A DNA stretch of 18,667 nt from Clostridiales bacterium. Lineage in GTDB: Bacteria; Bacillota; Clostridia; Lachnospirales; WQUN01. The translations under genes were made by a program, and so were the position numbers. The DNA lies in the NCBI GenBank assembly GCA_031269465.1, contig JAISZB010000069.1, positions 1 to 18,667 on the forward strand, read 5' to 3'. Shown piece after piece: positions 238-18,478 of the stretch (the stretch's first letter is position 1; every line of letters starts with the position of its first letter). The notes under the pieces were generated by a model. The model ran no database searches, was not told the DNA's origin, and saw only the letters and a program-made list of their open reading frames with translations.

Positions 238-715
238 AGCCTTATTTTTCAAGGCTTTAGGGGGTGATATGTTAAATAACTTGTAAACTCCCGCTATGTA
301 GCAGCTTGAAATTATAGGTCGTTTTTGAGAGGAAAAAGATGACAAAACAGCATTTTTATATCAGGGCCGGAAGCGACGCCGCCAACGGCGAATTTCCGCG
401 GATCCTCGCCTGAAACGTCGGCTGCCGCCTCGAGCCTGGCATATTGGGGATAATCTAGGGCATCAAGCGAAAGCGCGGTCAAAACCGGTGTTTTCGTCGC
501 GCCCCTGCCGCGCTTGCCGCCTTTTTCGGGAGTCCCGAAATAGGCCTCGTCCATATTTGCATGTAGGGATCTGTGAAAGAGTTTGAGGATGATGGACATT
601 TTGCCAGGTGCCATTTGGCCGGTACTTTGGGAAATGAAAGCGTGATGGGGAATGAGAGTGACTGATACTGTGCTTTGTAAAAAAATTGAAAAAATTTTGT
701 GCACCAACAGGTTTT

Positions 716-5008: not shown

Positions 5009-5989
5009 TATTGCCGCGACCCGGCAGCAGAGCGCCGCGTATGCGCGCTTGCGCGGCGGGGCAATTAAGATATCCGAGAAAAACGCGGAAGCAAATCTTC
5101 GGAAAGACTGCTTTGGCGGAAATCACGTGACATCGGTATCCTCCCCCGGCATGGCGGTACACGCGTCGCCGTCTGCCCGTCTGGTTTGGGAATGCGGCAG
5201 GCATCGGCCCTGGCAGGGCGCAAAGCCTGCATTGTCATCCTTGCAAACCAAAACAGACAGGAGGGCGTAGCAGCGCTCAAAACCGGTAGTTCTGCGTATT
5301 CGGCTTTTATGGAAATTCGATCTGGAATTCATCATCTCCTAAACAAATTTGCTTTCGTGTCATCGGTTTCCGGAAACACCCCGCACGAACCCGCCGGGCG
5401 CCGCCAGCCGTTGTAATGGCTGGAATAGAAACGGATGCTAATATTATAGCACGAAAGAATAACAAAAATGTTACGTTATATTTACAATTTTATATCAAGC
5501 TCGTTCATGCATATGAGAGTATAAAGCGCTTGAAATATGTCTTTCTGTTGCTTCAGCAGCTATACTGATGCGCTTTGCCGTCTGCCATGGGCAAATCGCG
5601 GCGATTAATAAGCTTATGGCTTAGCCCGATTCTATATTAGATCTAAGGCGAGCCGAGCTTTATGAAGGCGATGGATGGAGTTCTCCAGAGGCGCGAAATT
5701 CGCCTTGCAAATACAGTTGAACTTTAGGAAATCAAGGGATAATGCTTCGGTTGAAAATCCATCCCGAATTTTATACAGTATGCTGGCAATTCATATGAAA
5801 AAAGGAGGATGTGCAGTGTTCAAGCTCAATGCAGGCTATACTTTCTCCTGCAAGGAGGCGATCGTCGGGCTCGGGTCGGCGCGTGCGCCGACCGAGCCGC
5901 CGCGGAGATAAAGGATGGACGCTCGGATTTCCTCAAGGATCGCAACTCCGCGTCGCCGACGCCCATGAAGTTTTTTGAGGGGGAGGTTG

Positions 5990-6870
5990 GCCGACGCGCT
6001 CGGCGAAGTTGAAGTCGAGCCTGATTTTAAAGGGATCTCATCGGATCTTCGCGAAGAGGCGGCGGAAGCGCCGGATCCGCGCCAGTCCGCCAAAGCGGCC
6101 CGCCGGCTCCCGGACATGCCCGTCGCGGCACTGCTCGCCATTTTGCGAGGCGCGAACCCTTGGGGCGGCCTCGCGAGATTCGCCGGCGCCAACGCTGCTG
6201 GGATCCGCTTCTCCGCGACAGGCGACACGTTTCAAAACACATTTTCAAGAATCGACGACAACATTATTCTCAGGCATCTGGGCGGCTTCTTAAGCCGCCT
6301 GTCTCAGGCGGCCTCGCAAGCAAGGCGGAGGCCCTGCCAGCTGCCTGCGACACCTTCCCCGAAGAAATAATGCGCATTTCGCGCGACCGAAAGGAAAATG
6401 TCGGATCAGGGAAGGGCGGCGCAGCGAAAGCCAACATATCGGGCGCGTACGACTCCAAAACCGGTGCTGTTCCCGTCAGGGGCTAATCAACGCGAAAACC
6501 GATGAAACCGCGGCGATTCCGGCGCTGGTCGACCATGCCGGCGAAGCCGCGCGAGGATCCATGTCCGCATGGGACGCGCCGGATGCGACGGACAAGAACG
6601 CTAAGAAGGCCATTGAAGCCGGGACGAGCTGCGTTTAGGCGCTCAAGGGCGGCGCAGCGCGCATTTTCAAGCGAAACTGCGATATATTATGGCTGTCGGG
6701 ATAGAGGCCGGAACGGGGTGCGTCGAGATATTGAAAGACGGCATCCCGGCCATCCGCTGGGTTGCGAAAAGAGGCTGAGCGGACTATTTTGCGGCAGCCG
6801 GCATTTCGCGCTCCTGCAACTCGGATAAATAGGCCGAGTCGGACTCCATCCGCAGTTGGAGATGCAGTCC
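5990..6870 (+). mobile_element. ISAs1-family (H-repeat-like) transposase remnant, multiply frameshifted, GC-rich; boundaries approximate
   Basis: Matches the ISAs1 N-terminal pattern (…DPR…H.L.DIL…GA..W.DI..FG…FENGIPSHDT..RVFSRIDP…) in the frame of ORF 5975-6370:
LREEAAEAPDPRQSAKAARRLPDMPVAALLAILRGANPWGGLARFAGANAAGIRFSATGDTFQNTFSRIDDNII.
Matches the ISAs1 DDE-region motifs (SNEITAIP.LL and TIDAMGCQ…ALKGNQ) in other frames, interrupted by stops:
…DSKTGAVPVRG/LINAKTDETAAIPALVDHAG… (6489-6540) and …AWDAPDATDKNAKKAIEAGTSCV*ALKGGAA (to ~6660). Confidence 0.5.
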
Positions 6871-7090
6871 ATCAAAGCGGCGGAACTGCATATTCATTCA
6901 GGCAGATTTTGTCCTCTTCATACGTCATGGAGGAAATTTCAATGTCCACAAGGCTCCACAGGGGAGAATACCGATATTTAAAAAATACCTTCCATTTCTT
7001 AAAACCCATAAATAACGGGGCATTGCCAATTGCTTTATCGATATTAAGAATCAGGAGAAAACCATAATAGCCATCATAAGGCGGCGGGAA

Positions 7091-8300
7091 ATGAACGCAG
7101 AGGAATTCACAGGGAAATTCAACCTTGAAATTTCCAAGTTCGGCTATAAATCCAAGACTCAAAATGCGTACTTGAAACGCTGCAAAGAAATAATGTCTTT
7201 TATGCAACTGGAAGACATTCAGCTTTTCACGGAGGAATCCCTGGAAACATGCCTTGACTGTTTGCGGATTCGGTGCTATTCAGGCGAAATAAAGCCTGCC
7301 GCCCGCAAAATCCCGCGGAGGGCCGCCAGGCTCATGCATGAGCTCAAAGAAAACGGATCGCTGGAGCGGCGCGCCATGGCAGATGGGAAAGCTTTCAAGC
7401 CGACAAGCATGAAGGGCGCATATGAGGAGTTCATCGCATCCGCCTCAAAGCGGCCAGCGCCATCCACTATGCAGGACTTCAGGATCTGCGGCCGCAAGTT
7501 CATCGCGTTTTTGGAAGGCGCAAACCGCGCGGATTTCGAGAATTCCTGCGCCAAGGCCTTGAAGGATTGCATTTTCTTCATGGCTTCATCAAGCAAGCTT
7601 AACGGCTGTCAAAGATTCATTTATGTCTTGAGGGCTTTCTGCGGCTTCTTGTCCCCGAAGGGATTGATCAAGCCTGAAATGGCCGGGATAATGCAGAAGC
7701 CCGCGGGAAGCCGGAGAGACATCCTGCCATACCTGAAGCGGGGGCATGTCGAGGGCCTTCTTGGGCCGAGCCGACGGCATGCAAAACTGCAAGGGAAACT
7801 ATGCCATGACAGCCTTGCCGGCCAACACGGGCTTGAGGTTCGGCGTGATCAGCGAGCTGAAGCTGACAGGCATAGATTGGCGCGGCAACGCCATAAACGC
7901 ATTTCAAGGCAAAAATTCCCAAGCCAGTCAAGCCCCTCTTGACGCCGCGGCCGGCTATCGCTTCAATGAGCGTCCGCAAGGCAAAAACGCGGAATGCATG
8001 TTCATAAGCTCCCGGGCTCCGCACACAAAGCTGGCCGGAGGGAAGCTCATGAAAAAGCGCTTGGAGAAGGCGGGCCTTTGCGAGGGCGAAAGCGGATTCC
8101 ACGCCCTGGGGCGCGGAATAGCCGCGGATCTTCTTGAAGCCGGCGCGGATCATGAGATAGTTTCCCAGATTGACGGGCATATGCGGCTTGAGTCCCTGGA
8201 TCCCTACTTTGCTGTTGACATTGAAGGCTTAAGGAAAAGGCGCCGCGCCAGCTTCGAGGATCTCGGCGCCCCTGCGTCCAGCTGGGGCGCCAAACCTTGA
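7091..8300 (+). pseudogene. Tyrosine recombinase 1 (RitA-like, ~400 aa if repaired) with one frameshift near 7765
   Basis: - N-terminal ~220 aa are in frame A (7091-7942).
- The catalytic domain is in frame B (7746-8300): LLG-RADGMQNCKGNYAMTALPANTGLRFGVISELKLTGIDWRGNAINAFQGKNSQ…FISSRAPHTKLAGGKLMKKRLEKAGLCEGESGFHALGRGIAADLLEAGADHEIVSQIDGHMRLESLDPYF. This carries the box I region, HxLR, a second His and the catalytic Tyr.
- The frames join at LLG, where a GGGCC run (7763-7767) has one base too many. Confidence 0.65.
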
Positions 8301-8332
8301 AAAAGGATGCGTTTGGAAGCGAATTCGACTAG

Positions 8333-9061
8333 GACTTCGCGGACATGATTGAATGCAAAGCCGCCCTCGGCTTTAAGGAGAGCTCATGCTACGGAAGCCC
8401 GCTCAATTTTGATCGCTTCCGCCTCAAGAGCTTTCCCGGCGAATGCAGCATATCAAGCGAAATGCTGCTTGAATGGCTTGAGCCAAGGCCGAGGGAGGGC
8501 GTCAACGGCGCTGCCGCCAGATCATATTCCGCGGCGGGCTTGGCGAACTGCATCAACGCCATGGGGGGGACGTCGCATGTCCTGCATGCGGGCTATCTGG
8601 GGAAACGCGCCCGCTGCAATCCCTACATGTATTCCGACATGGAGTTGAAGCTGTTCATCTTTGCCACAGACTTGCACGCGCATGCGAAAAACCCTTTGGA
8701 CACCACTGTCCGCGACATCTTCAGGCTGCAGCGCTCCTGCGGGTTGCGGCCTTTCGAGCCGCGCCTGCTGAAGCGCGGCGATGTTGATTTCGAAGGCGAA
8801 ACCATTTATATAGCCGACTCGAGGATGCACAATGCGGGGTTTCATGAAAAGCCTGGGATTTTATTTATGTGCGTGTTACGAAAAAAATACTAACGTTCTC
8901 ATTTCTTGAGGCGCAGTTTCGTCACAAAATGCGTGCACAAGTATCTTTATGAAGGCCCTGTCGATTTCAAGTCCATCATTGTGCATTTCCAAAGATGCCC
9001 GGGCCATGCGAAGATCAGCGAGACACTGTACTACATGCGCCTGGTGCGGAAAGGATCCTGA
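8333..9061 (+). pseudogene. Tyrosine recombinase 2 (RitB-like, short) with an in-frame TAA at 8891-8893
   Basis: Frame-2 ORF 8345-8893 reads …YSDMELKLFIFATD…NPLDTTVRDIFRLQRSCGLRPFEPRLLKRGDVDFEGETIYIADSRMHNAGF…, the box I-like region. In the same frame after the TAA it continues SHFLRRSFVTKCVHKYLYEGPVDFKSIIVHFQRCPGHAKISETLYYMRLVRKGS* (8897-9061), which carries HxxR…GH…Y. So the break is a nonsense codon, not an indel. Confidence 0.55.
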
Positions 9062-9157
9062 TGAGCAAAGGGTTCGACCTGAATTGCACGAAGAGGCGGG
9101 ATCAGTCAAAAAGCCAAAGAGCGAATGCCTTGAGCCGCTGAGGGGCTGCATTTCCAT

Positions 9158-9720
9158 ATGTCTCCCCCGGCGGCGAAAGAAAAGCTCCGCCGCTGCCGAA
9201 AACTGCAAATGCGCGCGGAATGTTTTTTTGACTGTCTCGGAGATGTGGAGAAAATCAGCGTCACGGACATAAGCTTTGATAAAATGGCATTTGGCGTCAT
9301 GAACGGATTCGCGCAATGGATGCTTGAGGCGGGGAAATGCAAGAACAGCTCCGCGAATCAAAGGCTATCGCGCATATGGGCGTTCTGCAGGCGCGCATCG
9401 TTGCGAAAGCCTGCCTGCGGCATTTGCTGCAATGAGGTGAAGAGCGCCGGCTCCTTGGATGCCGGCAAGGGCAGGCAAGTGAAATTCTTTTCCGAGGACG
9501 CTCTCCAAGCCATTTTGGAGCAGCCGGACGCATCCGCCAAAATCGGCTGGGGGATTTCTCCCTCATGCTTCTGATGCATGACGCAGGCGCCAGGGCCGGC
9601 GAAATTCTGAAGTTGAGGCTGCCGGGCATTGAATCCCATTCAAGGGAGCTGATAGTGGGCGTCGAAGGAAAAGGGGGCAAGCTCAGGCAGATCCCCCTTA
9701 TGGATGCAACGTGCGCGTAA
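9158..9720 (+). pseudogene. Tyrosine recombinase 3 (RitC-like): N-terminal core-binding domain plus box I only; frameshift at ~9550 and 3'-truncated at ~9720
   Basis: - 9158-9574 has the SAM-like core-binding pattern: …MAFGVMNGFAQWMLEAGKCKNSSANQRLSRIWAFCRRAS…FFSEDALQAILEQPDASAKIGW.
- The frame then shifts inside a G5 run (9549-9553). Restoring one G gives GDFSLMLLMHDAGARAGEILKLRLPGIESHSRELIVGVEGKGGKLRQIPLMDATCA*.
- No HxxR/Y region follows. The sequence becomes AT-rich promoter DNA at 9721. Confidence 0.6.
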
Positions 9721-9776
9721 CTCGGGAAATACTAGGCGGTTTTCCATAAGGGCAGCCCGCCGACCCAATATTTGTT

Positions 9777-9833
9777 TTACACTGTCAGGCATGGCTTGGT
9801 ATACTGATTTTCATTGGTAATTTATGGTATAAT
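9777..9833 (+). promoter_or_regulatory. Two candidate sigma-70-type promoters in the AT-rich spacer
   Basis: TTACAC (9777-9782), a 17-nt spacer, then TATACT (9800-9805). A separate extended -10, TGgTATAAT, lies at 9825-9833. No ORF follows for ~190 nt. Confidence 0.3.
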
Positions 9834-9930: not shown

Positions 9931-9983
9931 GTCGATTAAAATGTCGACAAATACTTAACAAAAATGTCGCTGCATTCTATAAT
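9931..9983 (+). promoter_or_regulatory. Candidate promoter/operator of the phd-vapC operon
   Basis: TTAACA (9955-9960), a 17-nt spacer, then TATAAT (9978-9983). The ATG at 10024 is preceded by AAGGCGGAG (10012-10020). Direct repeats AAAATGTCG lie at 9938-9946 and 9961-9969. Inverted GTCGA / GTCGAC lie at 9931-9948 and bracket the -35. Confidence 0.35.
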
Positions 9984-10023
9984 AGCAATAGACATATTAT
10001 AAATAACGGACAAGGCGGAGATA

Positions 10024-10404
10024 ATGATGGAATTTGTACCTTTAAGAAGTCTACAGCGGGGATTACCAGAGGTCTGGCAGACTCTGCGCAAAGAAAATGG
10101 CCGAATTATTTTGACCAATAAAGGTCAACCAGCATATTTGCTTGTTGATTTAGCAGATAAAGACATCATCAATTTAATTAATTTTTTTGACGACTATCAA
10201 GCAAAAGCGGCGAGTGCGACTTGCGATCCAAAAGTTGAGACAAGTCAGAAACTAACGCCTCAAGAAGAAAAAGCCGCCCAAAATTTTTTAGCGGCAATGC
10301 AAACATTTAGAGAGACTAACTTTACACCAGAGGTTCTAAAGGCATTTACTGAACTTGAGAGCGGTAAATACCGACCTAAGTTATTTCGGGAGCTTGACTT
10401 ATGA
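10024..10404 (+). CDS. Type II antitoxin, Phd/YefM family (126 aa)
   Basis: N-terminus MMEFVPLRSLQRGLPEVWQTLRKENGRIILTNKGQPAYLLVDLADKDIINLI fits the Phd/YefM fold pattern (…ARQNL…PIlITrnG.p.avLvsl..Y..L). Its stop overlaps the toxin start (ATGA at 10401-10404). Confidence 0.8.
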   Translation: MMEFVPLRSLQRGLPEVWQTLRKENGRIILTNKGQPAYLLVDLADKDIINLINFFDDYQAKAASATCDPKVETSQKLTPQEEKAAQNFLAAMQTFRETNFTPEVLKAFTELESGKYRPKLFRELDL

Positions 10405-10814
10405 TATATGCACTTGATACCAATATTGTTTCATACATCATCAGGGGTGAAGGAGAAGCTGACAAGCGATTTTCACAAGAGCTTCAGGCCGGCAATTCAT
10501 TTGCCATTCCACCAATGGCGGTCTACGAATTAAAACGTTGGCTAATGGATAATCCATCGAAAGAAATGAGATTTCTGGCTCGAGAATTCGATAGTTTATA
10601 CAAAAGTGTACGCCACAAATCAGAAATGTCCGCTTCTGCATGGGAAGAAGCGGCGAAAATTTATATTCATTTAAAGCAAAAAGGTGAATTGATTGAAGAC
10701 ATGCATATTTTAATTGCCTCTTATTGTTTAGTGAATGATTATGTACTGGCAACTAATAATGCTAGACATTTTGATCGGATAGATGGAATAAAATATGTTA
10801 ATTGGATGAATTAG
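10401..10814 (+). CDS. vapC: Type II toxin VapC (PIN-domain ribonuclease), 137 aa
   Basis: MIYALDTNIVSYIIRGEGEADKRF… carries the PIN acidic residues: D in LDTN, E in YELK, D in IEDMHILIAS, and N/D in ATNNARHFDRI. The 4-bp ATGA overlap with the antitoxin indicates translational coupling. An 11-bp perfect inverted repeat (10818-10828 / 10848-10858) follows the stop. Confidence 0.85.
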   Translation: MIYALDTNIVSYIIRGEGEADKRFSQELQAGNSFAIPPMAVYELKRWLMDNPSKEMRFLAREFDSLYKSVRHKSEMSASAWEEAAKIYIHLKQKGELIEDMHILIASYCLVNDYVLATNNARHFDRIDGIKYVNWMN

Positions 10815-11312: not shown

Positions 11313-11689
11313 ATGAACAAGAAAACCACGATTCTCTACGAGCGCTTGAGTAGGGAAGATTCGAGGGCCGATGAAAGTCTGTCCATCGAAAACCAGAAGA
11401 AGATTCTGGAGAAGTACGCTGCGGAGATGGCTTCACGCCATTCTCCCATATCAGTGATGACGGCGCGACCGGAGCCAACTTCAATCGACCCGGCTGGCAG
11501 GAGCTGATCGCCAAAGTCGAGAACGATGTGGTCAGCACGATACTCATCAAGACGATGGACATGATGGGGCGCGATTACCTCCGCGCCGGGCTGTTCCGAG
11601 AGCGCGGGGTGCGCCTGATAGCCGTCGGCGACGGTTACGACAGTTCGCTCGGCGATGACGAGCGTTTACCGCGCCAAAAGATTTTTTGA
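11313..11689 (+). pseudogene. Large serine recombinase, N-terminal resolvase catalytic domain only; frameshift at ~11441 and 3'-truncated
   Basis: AGGAGG lies 6 nt upstream of the ATG. MNKKTTILYERLSREDSRADESLSIENQKKILEKYAAEMASRH contains the Y-x-R-x-S catalytic-serine motif typical of large serine recombinases. After a one-T deletion in a TTT run it continues FSHISDDGATGANFNRPGWQELIAKVENDVVSTILIKTMDMMGRDYLRAGLFRERGVRLIAVGDGYDSSLGDDERLPRQKIF*. The ~350-aa recombinase and zinc-ribbon C-terminal domains are absent. The convergent RidA gene begins 21 bp later. Confidence 0.7.
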
Positions 11690-11709
11690 CGCCAGCAAAT
11701 TCAATTTTC

Positions 11710-18124: not shown

Positions 18125-18478
18125 CTATACTGCGGCAATCTTCACTTGCGAGGAAGGCAATTCGCTGCATGACGCGCTTACAATCATTTCAGGGCTTTCT
18201 GATGCTTGCGCTACTGCCATAATTCTACCCCGCCAAGTTTTTCCTTTTGGCTGCGCGTAATTCTGGCAACCTGCGGGATCTCCTGATCCCATGGCTAAAA
18301 ATACTCCGCCTTCCACAGTAAAAGACAGCTCCAGATCTTCGTTCGGACAAATGCATTCAGATTCATCACAGTTGTTATGCGGCGGATACCAGGACAATTT
18401 AACGCCCATTACATAATGCGTTAACTGGTGTTTTGTGGCGTACACAATGCAGCTTTGCTTAATTGGAATAAGTTGCAA
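18125..18478 (-). CDS. Hypothetical protein; start uncertain (TTG at 18478 or ATG at 18409)
   Basis: The minus-strand ORF …MGVKLSWYPPHNNCDESECICPNEDLELSFTVEGGVFLAMGSGDPAGCQNYAQPKGKTWRGRIMAVAQASESPEMIV… looks more protein-like than the overlapping plus-strand ORF 17970-18260. No clear SD. An AT-rich putative regulatory region with the palindrome AAATTGAtTCAATTT (18576-18590) lies upstream. Confidence 0.25.
   Translation of the reverse strand: MQLIPIKQSCIVYATKHQLTHYVMGVKLSWYPPHNNCDESECICPNEDLELSFTVEGGVFLAMGSGDPAGCQNYAQPKGKTWRGRIMAVAQASESPEMIVSASCSELPSSQVKIAAV

What the first reader, a model, noticed from the sequence alone, without database searches (positions are those of the whole stretch)
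7091..9720. Three tandem tyrosine recombinases: a decaying recombinase-in-trio (RIT)-type element with an abrupt 3' deletion junction
Seen in sequence: three same-strand integrase-family genes separated by 45-100 bp.
- Gene 1 carries a complete catalytic signature (HALGRG…GH…LDPYF).
- Gene 2 carries R…HxxR…GH…Y (…LRRSFVTKC…GHAKISETLYYMRL) but has an in-frame TAA.
- Gene 3 retains only the core-binding domain and box I, then stops being coding at 9720, where AT-rich promoter DNA of the toxin-antitoxin operon begins.
- The block is ~60 % GC versus ~40-45 % around it.

Established knowledge: RIT elements, and Tn554-like units, carry tandem tyrosine recombinases.

Inference: a RIT-like element was acquired together with or next to the ISAs1 copy and later lost its 3' end by deletion. 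The frameshifts in genes 1 and 3 are homopolymer ±1 events and may not be real.
Basis: partly seen in the sequence, partly recalled or inferred. Interest (0 to 1): 0.5.

Follow-up and report, generated by a model that had tools for sequence, protein, structure and literature searches.

The report
Dead recombinase-in-trio (RIT) transposon relic
This stretch is the broken remains of a known kind of small mobile element that carries three tyrosine-recombinase genes in a row (a RIT element); all three genes are inactivated and the right-hand third of the element is missing, so it is an ordinary genomic fossil.

Summary
The three tandem tyrosine-recombinase genes are real, and they are a RitA-RitB-RitC set in the canonical order. 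Each gene matches only the same-position gene of reference trios from Cupriavidus pHG1, Agrobacterium pTiS4, Rhodococcus pR1CP1, Ruminococcus albus and Clostridia MAGs. Gene 1 has the two tandem core-binding domains typical of RitA. Its stop overlaps the gene 2 start by 4 bp (TTGA).

The element is dead.
- ritA has one frameshift, and its catalytic box-II Arg is Gly.
- ritB has in-frame TAG and TAA codons, an internal deletion of about 47 aa, and a lost C-terminal tail.
- ritC has in-frame TGA, TAA and TAG codons and one frameshift. Its homology ends at 9798, not 9720, at about residue 233 of 346.

The last third of ritC and the right terminal inverted repeat are absent from the contig. No convincing left terminal repeat was found.

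The trio is 54.6% GC, against 45-47% in the flanks. Upstream lies a degraded ISAs1-family transposase remnant. The window is a whole contig of a Clostridiales MAG. RITs of this subclade are common in Clostridia. Verdict: a new, decayed member of a known kind, of low interest.

The parts
7091..8300 (+). ritA pseudogene. Reconstructs to 402 aa, with two tandem core-binding domains and a catalytic domain.
   Evidence: PF00589 E 1e-11. Full-length alignment to RitA of Rhodococcus pR1CP1 (30% identity, E 1.5e-42), pHG1 and others. RitA HMM 163 bits. CB1 against CB2 by hhalign: 97% probability.
7741..7770 (+). Frameshift in ritA. The reading frame changes within GGGGG...GGGCC.
   Evidence: Three-frame translation and tblastn HSPs in frame 2 then frame 3. 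The exact base cannot be fixed, and no read-level check was possible.
8109..8111 (+). GGG (Gly) codon at the position of the catalytic box-II Arg of RitA.
   Evidence: Arg in 113 of 113 aligned homologues and Gly here. Coordinates.
8297..9061 (+). ritB pseudogene. The TTG start overlaps the ritA stop by 4 bp. It has in-frame TAG 8330-8332 and TAA 8891-8893, an internal deletion of about 47 aa at about 8873-8896, and a lost C-terminal tail.
   Evidence: 42% identity to the second gene of trio L012, E 1e-44. RitB HMM 64.5 bits. Global alignment shows the gaps. Stops verified.
9125..9798 (+). ritC pseudogene, truncated at the 3' end. ATG 9125, in-frame TGA 9131-9133, frameshift near 9547, TAA 9718-9720, TAG 9733-9735. 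Homology stops at about RitC residue 233 of 346.
   Evidence: tblastn to RitC of L012 (34%, E 7e-43) and pR1CP1 (residues 7-231 on 9134-9792). RitC HMM 91.7 bits. Comparison with intact C-termini.
9796..9800 (.). Truncation junction. RitC homology and the GC-rich block end here. AT-rich DNA (32% GC) follows.
   Evidence: No RitC C-terminus elsewhere in the window.
6861..7090 (.). AT-rich (41% GC) spacer upstream of ritA. It may be the degenerate left end of the RIT, but this is unproven.
   Evidence: Its length matches the 150-235 bp left ends of intact relatives. The only similarity is a 21/27-nt match (7045-7071 against L012 117-144), p about 0.04. The relatives' ATCCCGAT motif is not enriched.
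5975..6370 (+). Neighbouring degraded ISAs1-family transposase remnant, with the N-terminal domain at 6044-6298. The 61% GC block runs from about 5800 to 6860. This is context, not part of the RIT.
   Evidence: tblastn with a Xenorhabdus ISAs1 transposase, E 2e-8. phmmer E 8e-9. PF13808 E 6e-4. The rest of the transposase is not statistically detectable.

Best explanation
Window 7091-9798 is the relic of a recombinase-in-trio (RIT) element, a compact transposon-like unit of about 3.5 kb. It encodes three different tyrosine recombinases (RitA, RitB, RitC) from overlapping genes between long terminal inverted repeats.

In an intact element the three recombinases are presumed to bind short repeats arrayed in the terminal inverted repeats and to move the unit by site-specific recombination. 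That mechanism is inferred in the literature and has never been reproduced experimentally.

This copie cannot do any of that:
- ritA is frameshifted and lacks a catalytic Arg.
- ritB carries two nonsense codons and an internal deletion.
- ritC carries three nonsense codons and a frameshift, and it lacks its last ~113 codons (box II, His II, Tyr and the C-terminal helix).
- The right terminal repeat is gone.

The relic sits in a patch of other mobile-element debris on a contig of a Clostridiales MAG: an ISAs1 remnant upstream, then a VapBC-like toxin-antitoxin pair and a serine-recombinase remnant downstream.

Shown: the identity and order of the three genes, the lesions, and the position of the truncation. 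Inferred: that the loss of the 3' end was a deletion, and that the GC-rich block was acquired horizontally.
For: - Family and position. BLASTP: the best 8 hits of gene 1 are all A-position, the best 8 of gene 2 all B, and the best 6 of gene 3 all C. The same holds against the Agrobacterium vitis S4 pTiS4 trio. Van Houdt et al. list pHG1 and A. vitis genes as RITA/RITC.
- HMM scores: 163, 64.5 and 91.7 bits for the right class, against at most 34.5 bits for the wrong one.
- In the NJ tree each gene is sister to the same-position gene of the same Rhodococcus trio.
- The nearest relatives found by exhaustive HMMER (P0005, P0007) and by word search (P0001, P0002) are all first genes of trios with 4-bp overlaps.
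- 23 of 23 genome loci with all three genes keep the order.
- The RitA hallmark of two core-binding domains is present: hhalign 97%, E 8e-11, with controls below 1%.
- The ritA/ritB 4-bp overlap is present.
- Lesions.
- Truncation.
- Intact relatives carry 36-119-nt terminal inverted repeats directly flanking the trio. The window has none.
Against: - No terminal inverted repeat, a defining part of a RIT, could be shown in the window. The right end is missing and the left end is at best degenerate.
- Identity to any intact RIT protein is only 29-42%, so the subfamily assignment rests on profiles rather than on close relatives.
- The A/B/C labels of my reference set come from gene position in trios, not from a one-to-one mapping to the published Famint clusters.
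- The contig is from a MAG, so the junction at 9798 could in principle be an assembly join.
Confidence: 0.9

Rival explanations
1. The RIT is intact and active in the organism. On this view the apparent damage comes from sequencing or assembly errors in a MAG contig.
For: The ritA frameshift lies in a G/C run (GGGGG...GGGCC). The contig comes from a MAG. Active RITs of this subclade tend to break assemblies into contigs of 3-4 kb.
Against: There are five in-frame stops of all three kinds, at 8330, 8891, 9131, 9718 and 9733. There is also an internal gap of about 47 aa in ritB, a 5-aa gap and an invariant Arg changed to Gly in ritA, and a missing last third of ritC. None of these is an indel-type error. 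Long host ORFs on the same contig, of 854 aa and 596 aa, are intact.
Confidence: 0.02
2. The 3' truncation junction at about 9798 is a chimeric assembly join, not a biological deletion. The relic itself is still a decayed RIT.
For: GC changes abruptly at 9760-9800. The contig is a MAG contig. Mobile-element sequence is a common site of misjoins.
Against: GC-poor sequence flanks the GC-rich block on both sides of one contig, which would need two misjoins. A single-copy, mutated relic is not a repeat that confuses assemblers. This cannot be tested with the tools available.
Confidence: 0.05
3. The trio belongs to another multi-recombinase element: Tn554-like (TnpA, TnpB, TnpC) or GInt/SE-like (three integrase-related genes plus a fourth small gene and cargo).
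For: These elements also have several adjacent tyrosine recombinases. The 3' end, where a fourth gene would lie, is missing.
Against: Tn554-type units pair one typical recombinase with one abnormally long one (611-828 aa in the related actinobacterial elements) plus a non-recombinase TnpC. Here the sizes are about 402, 310 and 346 aa, and all three are PF00589 proteins. Every close relative is a compact trio. One (L013) is complete in 3.66 kb, with 119-nt inverted repeats directly flanking the three genes and no fourth gene or cargo.
Confidence: 0.02
4. The three genes are unrelated integrases that happen to be adjacent, for example a phage integrase plus XerC/XerD paralogues.
For: The NCBIfam best names are XerD, XerC and XerA.
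Against: Those hits reach 39-46 bits against cut-offs of 220-335 bits. The position-specific matches to RIT trios are far stronger. Order and spacing are conserved in 23 of 23 loci.
Confidence: 0.01

Closest known systems
RIT (recombinase in trio) elements. Archetype: Cupriavidus metallidurans CH34 Rmet_1271-1273. Abundant on C. necator pHG1.
   Same: Three adjacent same-strand tyrosine-recombinase genes in the order A-B-C. Reconstructed sizes are about 400, 310 and 340 aa. There is a 4-bp overlap at A/B. Each gene is most similar to the same-position pHG1 gene. RitA has two core-binding domains.
   Different: All three genes are pseudogenes. The last third of ritC and the right terminal inverted repeat are missing, and no left inverted repeat is demonstrable. 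Identity to the pHG1 proteins is only about 25-30%.
RIT on Rhodococcus opacus 1CP plasmid pR1CP1 (L006, 835965-839169). This is the nearest annotated trio.
   Same: It is sister to the window genes at all three positions in the tree. Identity is 30-32% for A, B and C, with E 1.5e-42, 7e-19 and 3e-32. It shares the 'FHALRR' box-II context.
   Different: The Rhodococcus copy is intact and has 116-nt perfect terminal inverted repeats. It comes from a different phylum.
Uncharacterised RITs of Clostridia MAGs and metagenomes: L012 (SRR16248206), L016 (Clostridiales bacterium AS09scLD_32) and L013/L014.
   Same: These are the closest relatives overall: A 29-30%, B 41-42%, C 33-34%. The host class is the same. 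The trio is compact.
   Different: They are intact. L013 has 119-nt perfect inverted repeats carrying arrays of an ATCCCGAT motif, which are not detectable in the window. L012 is 39.5% GC, against 54.6% for the window trio.
Tn554-family transposons and GInt/SE elements.
   Same: They are mobile elements that use more than one tyrosine recombinase encoded side by side.
   Different: They differ in gene number, sizes and partners (TnpC; GinD/Srap, Tfp), and GInt/SE elements carry cargo. The window genes match the RitA/B/C profiles instead.

Membership tests
RIT element | Three adjacent, same-strand tyrosine-recombinase genes. | tested here: met
   PF00589 hits on all three reconstructed products. 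All lie on the + strand, 7091-9798.
RIT element | The three products fall into the distinct RitA, RitB and RitC families, in that order. | tested here: met
   BLASTP ranking, HMM scores, NJ tree, and the same order in 23 of 23 loci. Caveat: the reference labels were assigned by position in trios from pHG1, pTiS4 and others, not from the curated cluster lists.
RIT element | Short overlaps (4-8 bp) between consecutive genes (PMC3414803). | tested here: inconclusive
   A/B: TTG 8297 overlaps TGA 8298-8300 by 4 bp, so this junction meets the feature. B/C: the ritB tail is unrecognisable, and 63 bp separate the ritB stop (9061) from the ritC ATG (9125). This junction is scrambled.
RIT element | RitA has two sequential core-binding domains (PMC8138268). 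| tested here: met
   hhalign of residues 5-100 against 108-222 across 114 homologues: probability 97%, E 7.7e-11. Both segments against the catalytic domain score below 1%.
RIT element | RitC has an extra conserved C-terminal helix (PMC8138268). | not testable with these tools
   This part of ritC, after about residue 233, is absent from the contig.
RIT element | Terminal inverted repeats flank the trio. The literature gives 34 bp to about 100 bp. The relatives examined here have 16-119 nt. | tested here: not met
   No inverted-repeat pair flanks the trio. No inverted copy of 6861-7090 exists anywhere in the window. The relatives' motif is not enriched. This is expected for the right end, which is deleted. 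The left end is at best degenerate. It counts against 'complete RIT', not against 'RIT remnant'.
RIT element | All three recombinases carry the catalytic residues, including Tyr (PMC10214605, PMC3414803). | tested here: not met
   RitA: Arg I, Lys, His, His II and Tyr are present, but Arg II is Gly. RitB: box II and Tyr are present, and the hairpin Lys is Arg. RitC: box II, His II and Tyr are deleted. This pattern fits a dead copy.
Tn554-family transposon | Two tyrosine recombinases of unequal size, one of them abnormally long, plus a small non-recombinase TnpC. | tested here: not met
   The third gene is a tyrosine recombinase. The sizes are about 402, 310 and 346 aa. Literature description. 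No direct comparison with Tn554 proteins was made.
GInt / SE elements | Four conserved genes, including a non-canonical Tfp/GinC and a small GinD/Srap, at the end of a cargo-carrying island. | tested here: inconclusive
   The 3' end is missing, so a fourth gene cannot be excluded directly. The intact relative L013 is a 3.66-kb unit with inverted repeats directly flanking three genes, and it has no fourth gene.
XerC/XerD chromosome-dimer resolvases | Score above the NCBIfam equivalog cut-offs. | tested here: not met
   The scores are 39-46 bits, against cut-offs of 220-335 bits.

The most novel reading that the evidence does not exclude
The GC-rich block (ISAs1 remnant at 61% GC and RIT remnant at 55% GC) inside a 45-47% GC Clostridiales contig may be a fairly recent import from a GC-richer donor. 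In that case it belongs to a RIT lineage that is otherwise unsampled: no protein above about 30% (RitA) to 42% (RitB) identity was found among 1.84 billion representatives. The RIT may also have landed in, or right next to, the ISAs1 copy, which would hint at an insertion preference of RITs for other mobile elements. A RIT nested inside another RIT in Rhodococcus pR1CP1 points the same way.
Probability: 0.12. Interest if true: 0.25.

Novelty: new member of a known kind. Interest (0 to 1): 0.1.

Why it matters
It matters little beyond annotation. The public record of this MAG contig lists the fragments as separate short genes: one 'tyrosine-type recombinase/integrase' and several hypothetical proteins. 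They should be annotated as three pseudogenes of one dead RIT element. The locus adds one more example of RIT decay inside a cluster of mobile-element debris in Clostridia. It says nothing new about how RITs move, which remains untested experimentally. The intact relatives found along the way would be better material for that question, because they have 119-nt perfect inverted repeats with arrays of short motifs.

Tried and rejected
- Rfam and tRNA scans of the window found nothing, so there is no tRNA attachment site and no structured RNA.
- Exact look-ups of host proteins and of P0004 in the contig index found nothing. No sister strain or empty site was therefore available to separate deletion from insertion.
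- The first genome-contig scan, with the gene 1 protein, found no close relative. A 4-sequence alignment worked.
- GGAAATTTCAA occurs in inverted copies at 6932 and 7125 and was considered as a binding site. It is not significant: 17 of 200 shuffles do as well.
- The TTATCCCGAT motif of relatives' ends is not enriched in the window: 19 matches against 18 expected.
- The alignment of the window's upstream region to the L012 left end is marginal, with p about 0.04.
- A second ISAs1 copy at about 11100, which would have made a composite structure, was rejected. That region is a serine-recombinase remnant.
- Extension of the ISAs1 transposase remnant beyond its N-terminal domain is not statistically detectable. 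My by-eye matches further downstream were dropped.
- Stop-codon reassignment was rejected, because TAA, TAG and TGA all occur in frame and long host ORFs are normal.
- No structure prediction was run. The profile-profile test answered the question about the two core-binding domains.
- The Ricker 2013 paper is not held in the library. The description of the inverted repeats was taken from PMC10214605 and from relatives analysed here.
Full report
**What is there.** The window is an entire 18,667-bp contig of a metagenome-assembled 'Clostridiales bacterium' genome. NCBI and JGI list fragments of the region as separate short proteins (MDR1537530-32). Between 7091 and about 9800 on the + strand, ORF listing and three-frame translation show three consecutive reading frames related to tyrosine recombinases, each broken by stops or frame changes. 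After stitching, all three match Pfam PF00589, with E 1e-11, 1e-4 and 8e-9. NCBIfam gives only weak Xer-like hits of 39-46 bits against cut-offs of 220-335 bits. They are therefore tyrosine recombinases, but not Xer proteins.

**Are they a RitA/B/C set?** A word-indexed search of 5.8 billion proteins with gene 1 returned three weak hits. The two whose contigs I looked up are first genes of trios (416/310/348 aa and 403/307/... aa) with 4-bp overlaps. tblastn against plasmids found 410 records. The best was a trio on Rhodococcus opacus pR1CP1. Others were trios on C. necator pHG1, on Agrobacterium vitis S4 pTiS4 and on Ruminococcus albus pRUMAL02. Van Houdt et al. single out pHG1 as RIT-rich, and their supplement lists RITA/RITC genes for both pHG1 and A. 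vitis S4.

I used these position-labelled trios as references.
- The best eight BLASTP hits of gene 1 are all A-position proteins. The best eight of gene 2 are all B, and the best six of gene 3 are all C.
- Class HMMs give 163, 64.5 and 91.7 bits for the matching class, against at most 34.5 bits otherwise.
- In an NJ tree on 150 shared columns each gene falls in its class. The B and C clades have 90-92% bootstrap support. Each gene is sister to the same-position gene of the same Rhodococcus trio.
- An exhaustive HMMER search of 1.84 billion representatives found 3,039 relatives of gene 1. Apart from the contig's own fragment, none exceeds about 29-32% identity among the top-scoring, near-full-length hits.
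- Two of the three best of these sit first in complete trios. The third (P0006) lies on a 1.5-kb contig that is cut just after the next gene starts.
- The closest trio (L012) matches genes 1, 2 and 3 at 29%, 42% and 34% identity, with E 1e-53, 1e-44 and 7e-43.
- A genome scan found 66 related loci, mostly in Clostridia. In all 23 loci that hit all three window genes, the order is the same.
- RitA's published hallmark is two sequential core-binding domains. It is present: profiles of residues 5-100 and 108-222 align with 97% probability, while controls against the catalytic domain score below 1%.

**State of the genes.**
- ritA (7091-8300) changes frame within 7741-7770.
- ritA also has a 5-aa gap, and it carries Gly (GGG, 8109-8111) where 113 of 113 homologues have the catalytic box-II Arg.
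- ritB starts at TTG 8297, overlapping the ritA stop by 4 bp. It has in-frame TAG (8330) and TAA (8891) codons.
- ritB also lacks about 47 residues between the beta-hairpin and box II, and it has Arg for the hairpin Lys. It ends at 9061 without the usual tail of about 22 residues.
- ritC begins near ATG 9125. It has an in-frame TGA at 9131, a frameshift near 9547, and in-frame TAA (9718) and TAG (9733) codons.
- ritC stays clearly homologous to RitC up to 9798. There the conserved continuation (MSDDNV..RF, box II, His II, Tyr, C-terminal helix) is missing.
- No RitC C-terminus exists anywhere else in the contig.
- Stops of all three kinds, the deletions and the Arg-to-Gly change cannot be homopolymer errors. 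The decay is real even if the two frameshifts were artefacts, which I could not check.

**Ends of the element.** Intact relatives have terminal inverted repeats directly flanking the trio.
- Rhodococcus pR1CP1: 116 nt, perfect.
- R. albus: 36 nt.
- pHG1: 16-19 nt.
- The metagenomic RIT L013: 119 nt, perfect, with arrays of an ATCCCGAT motif. The same motif is seen at the left end of L012.

The window has no flanking inverted-repeat pair and no inverted copy of the 230 bp upstream of ritA. It shows no enrichment of that motif. The only similarity to the L012 left end is a marginal 21/27-nt match (p about 0.04). The right end is therefore gone, and the left end is unproven.

**Surroundings.** The trio is 54.6% GC. 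A 61% GC block (about 5800-6860) upstream holds a degraded ISAs1-family transposase, of which only the N-terminal domain is statistically detectable. A 41% GC spacer (6861-7090) separates that block from ritA. To the right of 9798 lies 32% GC DNA with a strong promoter-like site (9955-9983). After it come a 126-aa/137-aa pair whose second member is a PIN-domain protein, and then a frameshifted serine-recombinase N-terminus. The locus is thus one of several mobile-element relics lying side by side.

[quoted passage not shown] This copy is immobile and non-coding. RITs have been reported in Firmicutes, and relatives are common in Clostridia MAGs. The finding is therefore a new, decayed member of a known kind. 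Whether the 3' loss was a deletion, another rearrangement or an assembly join cannot be decided without reads or sister genomes.

Noticed in passing
window 5800-6860 (ISAs1 N-terminal domain at 6044-6298, + strand): This is a heavily degraded ISAs1-family transposase remnant at 61% GC, immediately upstream of the RIT relic. Only about the first 95 residues are statistically recognisable.
   Followed up: partly
window 11313-11690 (+): This is the N-terminal remnant of a serine recombinase (Pfam Resolvase PF00239, E 1.3e-13). It is frameshifted near 11430, cut off after about 125 residues, and sits in a 54% GC patch.
   Followed up: partly
window 9955-10814 (+): A VapBC-like pair lies here. A 126-aa protein with no Pfam match overlaps a 137-aa PIN-domain protein by 4 bp. 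A near-consensus sigma-70-like site (TTAACA-17-TATAAT, 9955-9983) precedes the pair. GC is 38%, the lowest in the contig.
   Followed up: partly
window 312-704 (-) and 18125-18478 (-): Two further gene fragments were seen: a weak IS1595-type transposase match (E 0.014) and a C-terminal domain of a family 2 glycoside hydrolase (PF18565, E 1.6e-11). Much of the contig outside two long ORFs looks non-coding or pseudogenised.
   Followed up: no
window 8869-8892 and 9711-9734: A 24-nt direct similarity (71%) lies at paralogous positions of ritB and ritC (the '...L..KY' helix after the beta-hairpin), and in both genes it ends in an in-frame stop. It is probably chance or shared ancestry of the paralogues.
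   Followed up: no
L013 1-119 and 3540-3658; L012 1-180: An intact metagenomic RIT of the same subclade is complete in 3.66 kb. It has 119-nt perfect terminal inverted repeats that carry at least five copies of an ATCCCGAT core in both orientations. The left end of L012 has the same motif array. These look like recombinase-binding arrays and would be good material for studying the RIT mechanism.
   Followed up: partly
L006 (Rhodococcus opacus pR1CP1, record 834663-841343): One RIT, with 116-nt perfect inverted repeats, appears to be inserted in opposite orientation into a second RIT at its ritB/ritC boundary. This is a RIT nested inside a RIT.
   Followed up: no
L011 (A. vitis S4 pTiS4, locus 2501-2803 and 6666-6968): This RIT trio is flanked by two inverted copies of the same DUF736 gene (identical protein accession). 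The inverted duplication around the trio is therefore much longer than the usual terminal repeats.
   Followed up: no
L016-L081 (genome-contig hits): Many RITs related to this one lie on contigs of only 3.2-4.3 kb in Clostridia MAGs. That is the pattern expected if they are multi-copy repeats that break short-read assemblies.
   Followed up: no
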